Counted from the first letter of the stretch, positions 25,750 to 34,102 are shown. The stretch: DNA of 64,000 bases from an uncultured Alphaproteobacteria bacterium (GCA_964494065.1 CAZBRE010000001.1:14737-78736); one strand, 5' to 3'. A program made the numbers and translations. The notes: generated by a model not told the origin, from the letters alone.

Positions 25750-27468
25750 CTATGCGGTCACCGCCTCCGCGACACCCAGCTCCTGCATCATCGCCTCGCG
25801 CATCTTGAACTTCTGCGCCTTGCCGGTGACGGTCATCGGCATCTCGTCGACGAAGCGGATATGGCGCGGGATCTTGTAATGCGCGATCTGGCCCTGGCAG
25901 AACGCTCGGATCTCCTCCTCGGTCGCACTCTGCCCGGGCTTCAGCTCGATCCAGGCACAGACCTCCTCGCCGAGCCGCTCATCGGGCACGCCGAAGACCT
26001 GCACCGTTTGCACCTTGGGGTGACGGTAGAGATAGTCCTCGATCTCCGCCGGATAGACGTTCTCGCCGCCGCGGATCAGCATGTCCTTCACGCGCCCGAC
26101 GATGTTGCAGTACCCCTCGGCATCGAGCGCGGCGAGATCGCCCGTATGCATCCAGCCGTCGCCGTCGATCGCCTCGGCCGTGCGCTCGGGATCGTCCCAA
26201 TAGCCGCGCATCACCGAATAGCCGCGGGTGCAGAGCTCGCCGGTCTCGCCGATCGGCACGGTTCGTCCGTCGGCGCCGACAATCTTCACTTCGACATAGG
26301 GGTGGATGCGCCCGACCGTGGAGACGCGCCGGTCGAGCGGATCGTCGACATCGCTCTGGAACGAGACCGGGCTGGTCTCGGTCATGCCGTAGGCGATCGT
26401 CACCTGGCGCATATGCATCTGGGCGATCACGCGCTTCATCACCTCGACCGGGCACGGCGCGCCGGCCATGATGCCGGTGCGCAGCGACTTCAAGTCGAAT
26501 TCGGCGAAGCGTGGATGGTCGAGCATGGCAATGAACATGGTCGGCACGCCGTGCAGCGCCGTGCAGCGCTCGGCTGCCGCAGCCTTCAGCGTCTCCAGCG
26601 GATCGAAGCCCTCGCCCGGAAAGACCATTGCCGAGCCTTCGGCGATGCAGGCGAGGTTGCCCAGCACCATGCCGAAGCAGTGATAGAGCGGCACCGGGAT
26701 GCAGAGCCGGTCGCGTTCGCGGAGCGCCATCGCCTGGGCGCAGAAGAACGCGTTGTTGACGATGTTCCGGTGGGTCAGCGTCGCCCCCTTGGGCGCCCCG
26801 GTGGTGCCGGAGGTGAACTGGATGTTGATCGGATCGTCGGGCGACAGCGCGTTGGATATTGCGTCGAGCCGCGCGCGCTGGCCGCCCCCGCCCTTCCCCA
26901 TCACCTCGTCGAACGAAAACGTGCCCGGCACCGGTGCGTCGCCGAGCTGGATCACGGTGCGGAGATGCGGCAACCGCGCCGCCTTGAGACGGCCGGCCGT
27001 CGCGCCAGCGAGCTCGGGCGCGAGATCGCGCAGCATTTCGAGGTAGTCCGAGGTCTTGAAGTTCGGCGCCACGATCAGCGCCTTGGCCTTCACCTTGTTG
27101 AGCGCGTATTCGAGCTCGGCGCGGCGATAGGCCGGGTTGATGTTGACGAGAACGAGCCCGATCCGGGCGGTGGCGAGCTGGGCGATCAGCCATTCCGGCC
27201 GGTTGGGCGACCAGATGCCGATGCGCTCGCCCTTGTAAAGCCCGACCGCCAGCAGGCCTGCCGCAAAGCGGTCGACCCGGCGGGCGAGCTGGTCGTAGGT
27301 CCAGCGCACATCGCGGTCGCAGAAGACCGCCGCCTCGCGCTCGGCATGCTGGCGGAGCGTGTGCTTGAAGAACGCCGTGACCGTGACATCGAGCAGCGGC
27401 TGGTCGCGCGGCCCCACGACGTGCGAGAGGCCGTCGCTCGGCGCGACCCGGACCGCGGGCGCCACCAC
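25750..27468 (-). CDS. AMP-dependent acyl-CoA synthetase/ligase (FadD-like)
   Basis: 572 aa; AMP-binding motifs [23 protein letters not shown]...[12 protein letters not shown]. Confidence 0.9.
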
Positions 27469-27475
27469 GCGCCGC

Positions 27476-32718: not shown

Positions 32719-32845
32719 GAGGGCTACCTACCCTTTCCTAGGTTCTGTCGAAGTCCGGCGGGAAGAAGCCTCGCCGGGTGGGCGGCGACCCTCCCCCGAG
32801 ATTTGAGGGAGGGCGCACCCGTCAAGCGGCGAAAGCGCCGCGCCG

Positions 32846-34102
32846 CTATTTGATCCCCGCGGCCTTGAGGCCGTTCTCGAAGTAGAACTTCGACTGGTTG
32901 GGGTTCTTGATGAGGTCGCAGACGAGCAGCGTGTCCGCCGGCGGCTGCTGTTTGTGGGTCTCCAGGATGGTGTATTTCTGGTCTTTGAGCTCCGCGAGGT
33001 AGACGTTCTGCAGCGCGTGATGCGTGCGCGGCTCGATCGCGACCTTGCCGCTCGGCCCGTCATAGGAGACCGGCGCCTCGAGCGCCTCGATCACCTTCAT
33101 TCGGTCGAGCGAGCCGGCCTTCTTCACGCCCTCGGCCCAGAGATAGACGGCCTCGTAGTTGCGCGCTGCGAGCTCGTTGAGGTCGGACGCCTTGGCGCCA
33201 TACTTGGCCTTGAAGCGCTTGACGAAGTCCTTGTTGGCCGGGGTGTCGATCTCCTGGAAGTAGCTGTAGGCGACGATCATGCCGTTGCCTTCCTCGGCGG
33301 AGATGAGCTTGTGCTCGTTGCCGACGCCGAAGGTGGTGGAGGCGATCGGCACATTCTTGTTCATGCCGGCCGACGCATATTGGCGATAGAAGGAGACGTG
33401 CGCGCCGCCGACCAGCGCCGACATGACGAGGTCGGGCTTGGCGGCCTGGATCTTCTGGATCGTCGGCCCGAAATTGGTGACGTTGAGCGGGAAGAACTCG
33501 GTCGCCACCGTGGTGCCGCCGTTGTCGCGCACATAGCGCTGAACCCACTGGGCGGTGATCTGGCCGTAATTGTAGTCGGCCGCGACGATATAGACCTTCT
33601 TGCCCCACTTCTTCATCACGTGCGGCACCAGCTTTTCCACCGTCTGGGCCGGCGTGGAGCCGGTGCAGAAGGTATTGCGGTCGCACACCCCGCCTTCGTA
33701 GAGCACGTTATAGAAATAGAGCGTCTTGAAGCGGTTGAGCGTCGGCCGGATCGCCTCGCGCGAGGCGGAGGTGATGCCGGCATGGACGACATGCGCCCGG
33801 TCGCGCGCCGCGGCCTGCGTCGCATATTGGGTGTAGAACTGGATGTTCGATTGCGGGTCGTAGACCTTGAGATCGATCTGCTTGCCGAGCACGCCGCCGG
33901 CCTTGTTGATCTCCTCGACCGCCATCTTCATCGTGTCGACCATCGGCTTGCCGTAGATGTCGAGGCCGCCCGACTGGTCGAGGATGCCGACCATCTTGAT
34001 GTTGTTCGCGGCCGCGTTCGCGCGGCCGATGATGGCGGGCGCTGCGAGCGCCAAAGCCGCGGTGGATGCGCCTTGAAGAAACTTTCTGCGGTCGACATGC
34101 AT
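32846..34102 (-). CDS. urea/short-chain amide ABC transporter substrate-binding protein (UrtA/FmdD-like), Tat signal
   Basis: Start at Met 34102 (MHVDRRKFLQGASTAALALAAPAIIGRANA = twin-arginine signal). Motifs shared with UrtA (GGVLGK, YEGG, DYNYG, a HH pair near the C-terminus). Confidence 0.8.
   Translation of the reverse strand: MHVDRRKFLQGASTAALALAAPAIIGRANAAANNIKMVGILDQSGGLDIYGKPMVDTMKMAVEEINKAGGVLGKQIDLKVYDPQSNIQFYTQYATQAAARDRAHVVHAGITSASREAIRPTLNRFKTLYFYNVLYEGGVCDRNTFCTGSTPAQTVEKLVPHVMKKWGKKVYIVAADYNYGQITAQWVQRYVRDNGGTTVATEFFPLNVTNFGPTIQKIQAAKPDLVMSALVGGAHVSFYRQYASAGMNKNVPIASTTFGVGNEHKLISAEEGNGMIVAYSYFQEIDTPANKDFVKRFKAKYGAKASDLNELAARNYEAVYLWAEGVKKAGSLDRMKVIEALEAPVSYDGPSGKVAIEPRTHHALQNVYLAELKDQKYTILETHKQQPPADTLLVCDLIKNPNQSKFYFENGLKAAGIK

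What the first reader, a model, noticed from the sequence alone, without database searches (positions are those of the whole stretch)
25750..34102. Putative amide uptake-hydrolysis-activation operon (UrtABCDE-like importer + amidase + acyl-CoA synthetase)
Seven cistrons in one direction with overlapping or short junctions: a Tat-exported UrtA/FmdD-like binding protein, two permeases (GTGA overlap), two ATPases (ATGA overlap; the second fused to the amidase), and 8 nt downstream an AMP-dependent acyl-CoA synthetase. The implied logic is amide imported, hydrolysed to acid plus NH3, and the acid activated to acyl-CoA. The substrate is unknown; the urea-type binding protein suggests a small aliphatic amide rather than urea, since no urease or urea carboxylase is present. 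The nearby orphan LivK-like protein (36075..37229), which could be a cytoplasmic AmiC-type amide sensor, and the flotillin directly upstream add context.
Basis: inference. Interest (0 to 1): 0.5.

Follow-up and report, generated by a model that had tools for sequence, protein, structure and literature searches.

The report
Amide importer with tethered amidase
This is a conserved bacterial gene cluster that probably imports a small amide, splits it with an amidase fused to the transporter's own ATPase, and turns the acid into acyl-CoA; a flotillin gene always accompanies it, so this flotillin has a candidate partner that can be tested.

Summary
On the minus strand, 34102..25750 carries six tightly packed ORFs:
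- a Tat-signal binding protein;
- two permeases;
- a UrtD-like ATPase;
- an 863-aa UrtE-like ATPase joined by a 125-aa Ala/Pro-rich linker to an amidase-signature amidase;
- an acyl-CoA synthetase.

The amide reading is supported.
- The binding protein keeps the four UrtA residues that hold urea's C=O and one NH2.
- It replaces the four serving the other NH2 with Ile, Leu, Val and Gly.
- All transporter parts score below the urea-transporter cut-offs.
- The amidase domain matches the Rhodococcus N-771 amidase end to end.

New findings:
- The ATPase-amidase fusion is genuine. All 120 best database hits carry both domains.
- The fusions form one clade nested among unfused transporter-plus-amidase clusters.
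- Every fused locus with enough flank has the flotillin directly upstream (14/14) and this synthetase directly downstream (15/15). No unfused locus has either (0/11).
- The flotillin therefore belongs to the module.
- A MarR gene divergent from the AmiC-like gene recurs in a subset of loci.

The substrate is unidentified; a C3-C6 aliphatic amide is my guess. I found no publication on this arrangement. It is a new variant of a known kind, of moderate interest.

The parts
37433..37879 (+). MarR-family regulator, divergent from the AmiC-like gene. It is a candidate regulator of the module. In this window it also heads an RND efflux operon.
   Evidence: Pfam MarR 45.6 bits. Homologues of 37-50% identity sit in the same divergent position in L009, L014 and L020. 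A MarR gene also lies just upstream of the AmiC-like region, on the opposite strand, in the unfused Rhizobium locus L017. L088 has a MarR gene divergent from an AmiC-like gene about 7 kb upstream of the module.
36075..37229 (-). AmiC/LivK-like binding-protein homologue with no clear signal peptide. It is a candidate cytoplasmic amide sensor.
   Evidence: Peripla_BP_6 207 bits. Homologues of 45-49% identity lie upstream of the flotillin in L009, L014 and L020. The N-termini are not conserved and not hydrophobic. By motif position, in the register of the AmiC alignment of the transporter's binding protein, it has Ser, Tyr, Glu, Tyr and Val where AmiC has them.
34155..35837 (-). Flotillin (SPFH/Band_7 plus Flot domains) with an N-terminal membrane anchor. 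It is a conserved first gene of the module.
   Evidence: Pfam Flot 114 bits and Band_7 48 bits. It lies directly upstream of the binding-protein gene in 14 of 14 fused loci with enough sequence. The gap to the next gene is 52 nt here.
32846..34102 (-). Periplasmic substrate-binding protein with a Tat signal. It is UrtA-like, but the urea pocket is altered.
   Evidence: UrtA W120, Q144, N246 and S274 become I110, L134, V231 and G259.
32719..32845 (-). 127-nt spacer with stable hairpins between the binding-protein and permease genes.
   Evidence: MFE -66.2 kcal/mol, z = -2.3 against shuffles.
31849..32718 (-). UrtB-like permease.
   Evidence: BPD_transp_2. TIGR03409 202 bits, below the cut-off of 250.
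30794..31852 (-). UrtC-like permease. Its GTG start overlaps the upstream stop codon (GTGA).
30067..30768 (-). UrtD-like ATPase.
   Evidence: ABC_tran. TIGR03411 250 bits, below the cut-off of 304.
29363..30067 (-). UrtE-like ATPase domain (aa 1-235) of the fusion protein. Walker A, signature and Walker B motifs are intact.
   Evidence: GHNGMGKT at 39, LSGG at 138, LLDEP at 160.
28982..29356 (-). Ala/Pro/Gly/Ser-rich linker (aa 238-362) of variable length and sequence.
   Evidence: The linker is 41-157 aa in 82 homologues. In all 14 fused comparison loci tested, the frame stays open from the ATPase start to the amidase domain.
27476..28981 (-). Amidase-signature amidase domain (aa 363-863) of the fusion protein.
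   Evidence: NF005565 816.8 bits, above the cut-off of 545. 485 bits to PDB 3A1K over residues 6-499. K455, GGSSCGS at 528 and GGSIR at 552 are present.
25750..27468 (-). Acyl-CoA synthetase (ANL superfamily, PRK12583 subfamily), 7 nt after the amidase stop codon.
   Evidence: NF009233 887 bits, above the cut-off of 832.. Present directly downstream in 15 of 15 fused loci.

Best explanation
This is a self-contained catabolic module for a small uncharged carboxamide, R-CONH2, with an apolar R group. My guess for R is C3-C6 aliphatic.

Proposed steps:
1. A Tat-exported binding protein captures the amide in the periplasm. It holds the carbonyl and the NH2 as UrtA holds urea. The R group sits in an apolar sub-pocket.
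2. A LivHMGF/Urt-type ABC importer moves the amide across the membrane.
3. One of the two ATPase subunits carries an amidase-signature amidase on a flexible 41-157-residue tether. The amide is therefore hydrolysed to the carboxylate and ammonium at the cytoplasmic mouth of the transporter.
4. The co-translated acyl-CoA synthetase converts the acid to its CoA thioester.

Small amides and protonated short-chain acids cross membranes freely. Each step therefore turns a leaky solute into a trapped one.

The flotillin is anchored by its N-terminus, with its body on the cytoplasmic side. It is a constant partner and most likely organises or stabilises the transporter-enzyme assembly in the membrane.

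Shown:
- gene content, the fusion, the catalytic motifs and the pocket substitutions;
- conservation and co-inheritance of the seven genes.

Inferred:
- the substrate class;
- the trapping rationale;
- co-transcription of the flotillin gene and the flotillin's role;
- regulation by the MarR and AmiC-like pair.
For: Fusion:
- It is a single 863-aa ORF with intact Walker A, signature and Walker B motifs and an intact Lys / cis-Ser / Ser triad.
- All 120 best database hits (63-93% identity) carry both Pfam domains.
- In all 14 fused comparison loci tested, no stop codon interrupts the ATPase frame before the amidase domain, although the linker is not conserved.
- Linkers measure 41-157 aa in 82 database homologues.

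Not urea:
- All Urt equivalog models score below their cut-offs.
- UrtA W120, Q144, N246 and S274 become Ile, Leu, Val and Gly. S122, Y141, E146 and Y190 are kept (residue roles from PMC10392092).
- AmiC, which binds acetamide, also has Val at the N246 position and a non-polar residue at the Q144 position.
- Twenty-eight of the 30 binding proteins most similar to this one (at least 45% identity; 25 next to an amidase) have Ile at W120 and Val at N246. The other two have Leu/Val and Met/Ile. The canonical urea loci in the same sample keep W...Q...N-D.

Amidase: 485 bits, end to end, to the Rhodococcus N-771 amidase. NF005565 scores above its cut-off.

Module:
- Flotillin, binding protein, two permeases, ATPase, ATPase::amidase and synthetase occur in that order in L003-L007, L009-L011, L014, L020 and L087-L089. 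L001 and L008 are cut off upstream.
- Flotillin is present in 14/14 fused loci and the synthetase in 15/15. Neither is present in any of 11 unfused loci.
- The fused loci form one clade.
- The identities of the components co-vary across loci.

Precedent: the nitrile to amide to acid to acyl-CoA pathway of Pseudomonas chlororaphis B23 (PMC3511329; reference). One fused locus, L089, has nitrile hydratase genes next to it.
Against: - There are no experimental data for any member, and no ligand has been identified.
- The pocket mapping rests on sequence alignment only. The structure prediction of the fusion failed (pLDDT 42).
- The synthetase family is broad. Homologues of 67-70% identity come from genera such as Mesorhizobium whose gene context I did not examine. 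Its specificity therefore cannot be read from family membership.
- In-frame Met codons inside the window's linker could also yield a free amidase.
- All fused loci belong to one clade. The perfect flotillin/synthetase association may therefore reflect a single ancestral event carried along by inheritance, not repeated selection.
- No promoter or terminator could be assigned, so the operon boundaries are not shown.
Confidence: 0.7

Rival explanations
1. It is a urea (or biuret/allophanate-type) nitrogen-scavenging system. The transporter takes up urea or a ureide, and the amidase plays the part of an allophanate or biuret hydrolase.
For: The best NCBIfam matches of all five transporter parts are urea-transporter models. 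The closest solved binding proteins include three urea-binding UrtA structures. Biuret hydrolase and allophanate hydrolase are amidase-signature enzymes and appear among the weaker matches.
Against: Every Urt model scores below its curated cut-off. Four of eight strictly conserved urea contacts are lost, including N246, Q144 and W120, whose mutation abolished or strongly reduced urea binding. Allophanate hydrolase models score 140-151 bits against cut-offs of 487-511, whereas NF005565 passes. No urease or urea carboxylase is in the window. An acyl-CoA synthetase has no role in urea use.
Confidence: 0.05
2. The substrate is an aromatic or arylacetic amide (benzamide, phenylacetamide, nicotinamide, indole-3-acetamide), not a short aliphatic one. 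The acid would enter an aryl-CoA pathway.
For: The closest solved relative of the amidase domain is the Rhodococcus N-771 enzyme. From my own recollection of Ohtaki et al. 2010, which I could not read here, that enzyme works best on benzamide and was crystallised with it. The closest solved relatives of the synthetase include a feruloyl-CoA synthetase. MarR regulators often answer to aromatic acids or their CoA esters (general knowledge). Locus L001 has PaaX and a second AMP-binding gene a few kb away.
Against: The binding protein is a close relative of proteins whose closed pocket fits urea or acetamide. Only four small-residue substitutions enlarge it. Benzoate-CoA ligases match the synthetase worse (169 bits) than fatty-acyl-CoA ligases do (231-279 bits). 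The PaaX flank is not conserved in other loci.
Confidence: 0.15
3. The flotillin and/or the synthetase are passengers. They were picked up once by the ancestor of the fused clade and have stayed adjacent by inheritance. They take no part in amide uptake.
For: All fused loci form a single clade, so the association counts as one evolutionary event. The flotillin-to-binding-protein gaps vary from 43 to 299 nt. The unfused relatives work without either gene. Flotillin identity tracks amidase identity less tightly than the other parts do (rho 0.59 against 0.80-0.85).
Against: Adjacency and order survive down to 35% flotillin identity and 62% amidase identity, across Alpha- and Gammaproteobacteria, while both flanks change completely. 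Three flotillin homologues chosen without regard to the amidase were all next to the module. The synthetase starts within about 40 nt of the amidase stop codon, or overlaps it, in 10 of the 11 loci where genes were called (266 nt in L006).
Confidence: 0.2
4. The amidase domain acts mainly as a sensor or regulator of the transporter, like the C-terminal regulatory domains of MetN or MalK. It would not be a catabolic enzyme.
For: C-terminal extensions of ABC importer ATPases are usually regulatory (general knowledge).
Against: The catalytic Lys, cis-Ser and Ser, the GGSS motif and 80% of the domain are conserved or invariant across the clade. The tether is long, disordered and variable, unlike a docked regulatory domain. 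In the unfused sister clusters the same amidase is a free-standing enzyme.
Confidence: 0.05

Closest known systems
UrtABCDE urea ABC transporter (TIGR03407-03411; UrtA structures 8HIC, 7S6E, 7S6F)
   Same: It has the same five-component architecture and gene order (binding protein, two permeases, two ATPases) and belongs to the same protein families. The binding protein scores 172-180 bits against the UrtA structures. It keeps S122, Y141, E146 and Y190 of the urea site.
   Different: All five parts fall below the equivalog cut-offs. W120, Q144, N246 and S274 are replaced by Ile, Leu, Val and Gly. There is no urease or urea carboxylase. One ATPase is fused to an amidase.
Pseudomonas aeruginosa amiEBCRS aliphatic amidase operon (AmiC structure 1PEA)
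   Same: It is an amide-catabolic cluster containing a cytoplasmic protein of the periplasmic-binding-protein fold. AmiC and the binding protein here share Val at the UrtA-N246 position and a non-polar residue at the Q144 position. An unfused Pseudomonas relative (L022) has an AmiC-type gene right after the amidase.
   Different: AmiE belongs to the nitrilase superfamily, not the amidase-signature family (PMC11732141). No AmiR/ANTAR gene lies next to the AmiC-like gene here; the neighbour is a MarR gene. Here there is a full ABC importer, a flotillin and a synthetase.
Rhodococcus sp. N-771 amidase (PDB 3A1K/3A1I) and the NF005565 (PRK07235) amidase subfamily
   Same: The amidase domain aligns with residues 6-499 of 521 at 485 bits. 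The alignment includes the N-terminal helical domain peculiar to this enzyme and the Lys96/Ser171/Ser195 triad.
   Different: The Rhodococcus enzyme is a free soluble dimer. It is described in the nitrile hydratase literature. Here the enzyme is tethered to an ABC ATPase.
Aldoxime-nitrile pathway of Pseudomonas chlororaphis B23 (amidase, nitrile hydratase, acyl-CoA synthetase AcsA)
   Same: It uses the same chemical logic, amide to acid to acyl-CoA, with the amidase and synthetase encoded together (PMC3511329; Hashimoto et al. 2005 cited).
   Different: In that pathway the amide is made inside the cell from a nitrile. Here it is imported. No nitrile hydratase is in the window, and only L089 has one nearby.
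FmdDEF short-chain amide/urea transporter of Methylophilus methylotrophus
   Same: By recollection, it is a Urt/Liv-type importer linked to an amidase (formamidase) gene and proposed to take up short-chain amides.
   Different: By recollection, the linked enzyme is a formamidase of another family, and neither a fusion, a flotillin nor a synthetase is described. I had no FmdD sequence and found no held paper on it, so this comparison is untested.
Bacterial flotillins (E. coli YqiK, Bacillus subtilis FloT)
   Same: It has the same Band_7 plus Flot domain pair and about the same size. Sources name the homologues YqiK or flotillin.
   Different: As far as I know, those flotillins are not encoded with one specific transporter, and I did not check this. 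This one is fixed next to one ABC importer in every locus examined.

Membership tests
UrtABCDE urea ABC transporter (NCBIfam equivalogs) | Score at or above the curated cut-off of TIGR03407/03669 (UrtA), TIGR03409 (UrtB), TIGR03408 (UrtC), TIGR03411 (UrtD) and TIGR03410 (UrtE). | tested here: not met
   Scores against cut-offs: 255.5 vs 492.75 and 363.8 vs 494.8 (UrtA models); 202.4 vs 250.3; 188.5 vs 296.2; 249.6 vs 304.1; 251.6 vs 285.8.
UrtABCDE urea ABC transporter (NCBIfam equivalogs) | The eight urea-pocket residues reported as strictly conserved in UrtA: W120, S122, Y141, Q144, E146, Y190, N246 and S274. | tested here: not met
   Four of eight are changed: W120I, Q144L, N246V and S274G.
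UrtABCDE urea ABC transporter (NCBIfam equivalogs) | Genomic link to urease or urea carboxylase/allophanate hydrolase. | tested here: not met
   None was found among the ORFs scanned across the 64-kb window.
Hydrophobic amino acid/amide/urea ABC importer type (LivHMGF/Urt architecture) | Peripla_BP_5/6 binding protein, two BPD_transp_2 permeases, and two different ABC_tran ATPases of LivG and LivF type. | tested here: met
   Pfam matches are all above gathering scores. LivH, LivM, LivG and LivF appear as secondary NCBIfam matches.
Amidase-signature family, NF005565 (PRK07235) subfamily | Score above the curated cut-off, a GGSS[GS]GS motif, and a Lys / cis-Ser / Ser triad. | tested here: met
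   816.8 bits against a cut-off of 545. GGSSCGS at 528, K455, S530/S531 and S554 are present and invariant in 14 fusions.
Amidase-signature family, NF005565 (PRK07235) subfamily | The N-terminal alpha-helical domain peculiar to the Rhodococcus N-771 type. | tested here: met
   The alignment starts at residue 6 of 3A1K. The domain is described in PMC11732141. This was tested by sequence only.
Pseudomonas aeruginosa amiEBCRS system | A nitrilase-superfamily amidase (AmiE). | tested here: not met
   The amidase here is of the amidase-signature family.
Pseudomonas aeruginosa amiEBCRS system | An AmiC sensor paired with an AmiR antiterminator. | tested here: not met
   An AmiC-like gene is present at 36075..37229. 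The adjacent regulator is a MarR gene, and no other Pfam family was found in the neighbouring ORFs.
ANL acyl-CoA synthetases, NF009233 (PRK12583) subfamily | Score above the curated cut-off, with AMP-binding and AMP-binding_C domains. | tested here: met
   887 bits against a cut-off of 832. Pfam scores are 341 and 75 bits.
DmdB (3-methylmercaptopropionyl-CoA ligase) | Close relationship to a characterised DmdB. | tested here: inconclusive
   One UniRef name appears on a homologue of 68% identity. PDB entry 6IHK, which I take from memory to be the solved DmdB (the hit table names it only 'AMP-binding domain protein'), scores only 172 bits. That is below several fatty-acyl-CoA ligases.
Flotillin / SPFH | Band_7 (SPFH) domain followed by a Flot domain, with an N-terminal membrane anchor. 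| tested here: met
   Pfam scores are 48.3 and 114.1 bits. The N-terminus is the hydrophobic MVWFVAIVILVIAIILAILFLNRFYKK.
FmdDEF amide/urea transporter | Sequence relationship of the binding protein to FmdD, and a link to formamidase FmdA. | not tested
   No FmdD sequence or paper was available. No FmdA_AmdA family protein was seen in the window scans.
Aldoxime-nitrile-amide gene cluster | Nitrile hydratase alpha and beta genes beside the amidase. | tested here: not met
   tblastn with the L089 nitrile hydratase beta and accessory peptides found nothing in the window or in the other loci; the alpha query was a truncated, out-of-frame fragment and tested nothing. None was seen in the Pfam scans.

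The most novel reading that the evidence does not exclude
The seven genes encode a membrane-bound transport metabolon.

- The amidase, if it dimerises like its Rhodococcus relative, bridges two importers through its tethers.
- A dedicated flotillin corrals these assemblies, and perhaps the synthetase, into one membrane patch.
- A freely membrane-permeant amide is then captured, hydrolysed and thioesterified before it can diffuse away.

This would be a form of vectorial metabolism not described for ABC importers. It would also give a bacterial flotillin a defined, genetically linked client.
Probability: 0.2. Interest if true: 0.75.

Novelty: new variant of a known kind. Interest (0 to 1): 0.55.

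Why it matters
The fusion. ABC importers and the enzymes that use their cargo are normally separate proteins. Here a catabolic enzyme is permanently tethered to the transporter's ATPase, and this arrangement is conserved in many Alpha- and Gammaproteobacteria. That points to selection for hydrolysis at the point of entry. The logic fits a solute that would otherwise leak back out through the membrane.

The flotillin. What bacterial flotillins do, and for which clients, remains disputed. A flotillin gene fixed beside one particular transporter-enzyme module offers a simple genetic system for testing the scaffold idea.

Annotation. Databases label these proteins only as 'amidase', 'urea ABC transporter' or 'AMP-binding protein'. 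The pocket signature found here (Ile, Val and Gly in place of Trp, Asn and Ser) separates amide-type from urea-type binding proteins. That would improve estimates of urea use in metagenomes.

Tried and rejected
- **Structure prediction of the fusion.** An alignment of 14 close homologues gave mean pLDDT 42. The amidase domain was below 50 throughout. I did not use it and ran no fold search.
- **Leader RNA elements.** An Rfam scan of 25000..38500 gave only a sub-threshold Guanidine-II match inside the flotillin coding region (23.4 bits against 32, E = 0.35). I treat it as chance.
- **Promoter and terminator scan.** It found no promoter-like site, and terminator-like sites were no more frequent than in shuffles. 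Transcript boundaries therefore remain unknown.
- **An AmiR-like gene upstream of the AmiC-like gene.** The same-strand ORFs there (window 37388..37918, and equivalents in L009, L014 and L020) have no Pfam match. Their mutual similarity is the antisense shadow of a real MarR gene on the other strand.
- **Nitrile hydratase as a regular neighbour.** It is present only in L089.
- **Literature.** Searches for the fusion, for flotillin with an amidase and an ABC transporter, for FmdDEF, and for PDB entry 8TG1 found nothing relevant. One apparent hit was an author's surname. The Hashimoto 2005 paper is not held.
- **Synthetase specificity from names.** Sources give only generic names, plus one automatic 'DmdB' label.
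- **Unused tools.** I did not use the 1.84-billion-protein representative search. At 50% clustering the fused clade would collapse to a few entries.

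
Full report
**1. What is in the sequence**

The window is GC-rich (63-71% in this stretch), so long spurious ORFs abound. The real genes are on the minus strand. Reading 5' to 3':

| Coordinates | Size | Product |
|---|---|---|
| 34102..32846 | 418 aa | Binding protein with Peripla_BP_6/5 domains. It starts MHVDRRKFLQG..., a twin-arginine signal, and GAGGAG precedes the ATG. 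|
| 32718..31849 | 289 aa | BPD_transp_2 permease |
| 31852..30794 | 352 aa | BPD_transp_2 permease |
| 30768..30067 | 233 aa | ABC ATPase, best matched by UrtD |
| 30067..27476 | 863 aa | N-terminal ABC ATPase best matched by UrtE, fused to a C-terminal amidase-signature amidase |
| 27468..25750 | 572 aa | AMP-binding acyl-CoA synthetase |

Junctions:
- The two permease genes overlap by GTGA.
- The two ATPase genes overlap by one base (TGATG), not ATGA.
- Seven bases separate the amidase stop codon from the synthetase GTG.
- A 127-nt spacer with stable hairpins follows the binding-protein gene.

The count is six ORFs, not seven cistrons.

**2. The fusion is real and conserved**

The ATPase part has Walker A (GHNGMGKT), the LSGG signature and Walker B (LLDEP). 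The amidase part has K455, GGSSCGS and GGSIR. Between them lie 125 residues rich in Ala, Pro, Gly and Ser.

- In a search of 5.8 billion proteins, all 120 best hits (63-93% identity, 768-893 aa) carried both Pfam domains. Sources call them simply 'amidase'.
- In 82 of these hits the linker is 41-157 residues (median 70), with similar composition and no conserved sequence.
- In all 14 fused comparison loci tested, no stop codon interrupts the ATPase frame before the amidase domain.
- A non-coding spacer would not stay open and in frame in all of them. The fusion is therefore under selection and is not a sequencing artefact.

**3. Comparative genomics**

I fetched 89 loci, using the fusion protein, an alignment of fusions, and flotillin homologues as queries. 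I mapped the window's proteins onto them. Three groups appear.

- **Fused loci.** These are the window, L001-L011, L014, L020, L024 and L087-L089.
  - Named taxa include Roseicyclus, Sedimentitalea, Pseudophaeobacter, Aquibium, Anderseniella and Acidiferrobacteraceae.
  - Database hits add Rhodospirillales, Geminicoccaceae and Immundisolibacterales.
- **Unfused loci.** The same transporter is followed by a separate amidase gene in L012, L013, L015-L017, L019, L021-L023, L026 and L030. These include Rhizobium rhizogenes and a Pseudomonas. In L018, L027, L032 and L034 the amidase lies upstream or on the other strand.
- **Urea-type and other Urt-like loci.** These have no amidase, and their binding proteins are only 25-36% identical.

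In a neighbour-joining tree of the amidase domain, the fused loci form one clade nested among the unfused ones.

Every fused locus with enough flanking sequence has a flotillin gene directly upstream of the binding-protein gene (14 of 14). Every one has a synthetase of 61-89% identity directly downstream of the amidase (15 of 15). None of the 11 unfused loci has either.

I also picked three flotillin homologues of 65-69% identity without reference to the amidase. All three lay at the head of the same seven-gene array.

The outer flanks differ completely between loci. Identities of the components co-vary across loci:

| Pair | Spearman rho |
|---|---|
| Binding protein vs amidase | 0.85 |
| Synthetase vs amidase | 0.80 |
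| Flotillin vs amidase | 0.59 |

The conserved unit is therefore flotillin, binding protein, permease, permease, ATPase, ATPase::amidase, synthetase.

**4. What the transporter carries**

All five transporter parts have urea-transporter models as their best NCBIfam match, but all fall below the curated cut-offs.

The study of UrtA from Prochlorococcus (PDB 8HIC) names eight residues as strictly conserved: W120, S122, Y141, Q144, E146, Y190, N246 and S274.
- Ser122, Gln144, Tyr190 and Asn246 hydrogen-bond urea.
- Trp120 holds Asn246 in place (PMC10392092).

In the HMMER alignment with 8HIC, the window protein keeps S122, Y141, E146 and Y190. It has Ile, Leu, Val and Gly at W120, Q144, N246 and S274.
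- The side chains that bind the first urea nitrogen are replaced by apolar ones.
- The residues that bind the carbonyl oxygen and the second nitrogen remain.

This pattern is what one expects if one NH2 of urea is exchanged for an alkyl or other apolar group.

AmiC of Pseudomonas aeruginosa, solved with acetamide (1PEA), also has Val at the N246 position and Pro at the Q144 position.

Among the 30 binding proteins most similar to this one (at least 45% identity; 25 lie next to an amidase), 28 have Ile at W120 and Val at N246. The other two have Leu/Val and Met/Ile. The canonical urea loci in the same sample keep W-S-Y-P-V-Q-E-Y-V-[FY]-N-D. The substitutions mark a distinct clade and are not a quirk of this one sequence.

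**5. The enzymes**

*Amidase.* The domain scores 816.8 bits on NF005565 (cut-off 545). It aligns with residues 6-499 of the 521-residue Rhodococcus sp. N-771 amidase at 485 bits. The alignment includes the N-terminal helical domain that a review describes as unique to that dimeric enzyme (PMC11732141). Allophanate and biuret hydrolase models match far worse.

*Synthetase.* It passes the NF009233 (PRK12583) cut-off (887 against 832). Its nearest solved relatives are fatty-acyl-, feruloyl- and malonyl-CoA ligases at 220-279 bits, so structure gives no firm specificity. Database names are generic. One homologue of 68% identity is auto-named 3-methylmercaptopropionyl-CoA ligase. PDB 6IHK, which I take from memory to be the solved DmdB, scores only 172 bits. 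Characterised DmdB enzymes prefer short and medium-chain acids such as butyrate and propionate (PMC5395565). That is only a weak pointer to chain length.

*Precedent.* The sequence amide to acid to acyl-CoA, carried out by an amidase and an acyl-CoA synthetase encoded together, is established for the nitrile pathway of Pseudomonas chlororaphis B23 (PMC3511329; reference). One fused locus, L089, has nitrile hydratase genes just downstream. No other locus does, and neither does the window.

**6. Regulation and surroundings**

Upstream of the flotillin lies the AmiC/LivK-like gene (36075..37229).
- Homologues of 45-49% identity occupy the same place in L009, L014 and L020.
- The N-termini are neither conserved nor hydrophobic, which fits a cytoplasmic sensor.
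- Its neighbour is not an AmiR-type antiterminator. It is a divergently transcribed MarR gene (37433..37879).
- MarR homologues of 37-50% identity hold the same position in L009, L014 and L020.
- In the unfused Rhizobium locus L017, a MarR gene lies just upstream of the AmiC-like region on the opposite strand. In L088 a divergent MarR/AmiC-like pair lies about 7 kb upstream of the module.
- An unfused Pseudomonas locus instead has a strong AmiC-type gene right after the amidase.

The window's cluster is flanked by two RND efflux operons. The window holds no urease, urea carboxylase or nitrile hydratase. I found no Rfam element or convincing promoter or terminator.

**7. How it most likely works**

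1. The binding protein captures an uncharged carboxamide with an apolar side group.
2. The importer brings it in.
3. The tethered amidase hydrolyses it at the cytoplasmic face.
4. The synthetase makes the CoA ester.

The rationale I favour is sequential trapping, and this is inference. Small amides and protonated short acids cross bilayers, so pumping them in is wasteful unless they are converted at once.

The flotillin has an N-terminal hydrophobic anchor followed by basic residues. Its body should therefore face the cytoplasm, on the same side as the ATPase-amidase. If the amidase dimerises like its Rhodococcus relative, it would link two transporters, and a scaffold would then make sense. 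None of this is shown.

**8. Novelty and verdict**

Every component belongs to a known family, and amide-catabolic clusters with Urt/Liv-type importers are an expected kind of system. Three things are new, as far as I could find in the held literature:
- the conserved ATPase-amidase fusion;
- its strict association with a flotillin and a particular synthetase;
- the pocket signature that separates these binding proteins from urea binders.

I rate it a new variant of a known kind, with interest 0.55.

The main weaknesses are the absence of any experiment, the unknown substrate, the failed structure prediction, and the single origin of the fused clade. That single origin limits how much the perfect gene association proves.

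Noticed in passing
window 32719..32845 (-): The 127-nt spacer after the binding-protein gene folds into several GC-rich hairpins (-66.2 kcal/mol, z = -2.3). These may stabilise the upstream transcript or attenuate read-through, setting the ratio of binding protein to membrane parts.
   Followed up: partly
L041, L051, L053, L061, L070, L075, L078, L081, L082 (binding-protein genes upstream of position 10001): A third pocket type, W-S-Y-P-T-F-E-Y-I-W-V-G-V-T, occurs in Urt-like binding proteins of Methylobacterium, Methylorubrum, Bradyrhizobium, Bordetella and others. Like the amide type it has Val instead of Asn246, but it keeps Trp120. These may not be urea binders either and could be FmdD-like.
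   Followed up: no
L089 20116..21614 (-): Nitrile hydratase alpha, beta and accessory genes lie convergent to the fused module, right after the synthetase and a small ABM-domain gene. This is the only locus of 89 with this arrangement.
   Followed up: partly
L022 12936..14078 (+), Pseudomonas morbosilactucae: An unfused transporter-plus-amidase cluster is followed directly by a strong AmiC-type gene (Peripla_BP_5, 409 bits). A 209-aa ORF after it was not examined and could be AmiR.
   Followed up: no
window 20566..25561 and 37433..42338: Two RND efflux operons flank the module. One is TetR plus HlyD-type plus AcrB-type; the other is MarR plus HlyD-type plus AcrB-type. The MarR gene that faces the AmiC-like gene also heads one of them, so it may control both.
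   Followed up: no
window 62302..63351 (+): There is a CobW/COG0523-type GTPase gene near the end of the window. By my recollection, a protein of this family (P47K) accompanies nitrile hydratase in Pseudomonas chlororaphis B23. Anything downstream lies outside the window.
   Followed up: no
window 35331..35406 (-): A sub-threshold Rfam match to the Guanidine-II riboswitch (23.4 bits against 32, E = 0.35) lies inside the flotillin coding region. It is most likely chance.
   Followed up: no
window 25750..27468 (-): The synthetase is 100% identical to a protein (P0241) on a 6967-bp JGI metagenome contig, and the flotillin is 97% identical to another JGI protein (P0121). The closest named genome in the species collection reached only 79% identity in its best aligned segment to the fusion protein. 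The source organism appears to be known mainly from metagenomes.
   Followed up: no
window 11555..16495 (+): A second Liv-type ABC system is present: two ATPases, a permease and a Peripla_BP_6/ANF_receptor binding protein. Two further orphan Peripla_BP_6 genes (46924..48210 and 36075..37229) are in the same window.
   Followed up: no
L009 3074..3865, L014 3228..3815, L020 3255..3812, window 37388..37918: Long same-strand ORFs upstream of the AmiC-like gene look homologous to each other. They are antisense shadows of the MarR gene on the opposite strand. This is a trap for gene callers in GC-rich DNA.
   Followed up: yes
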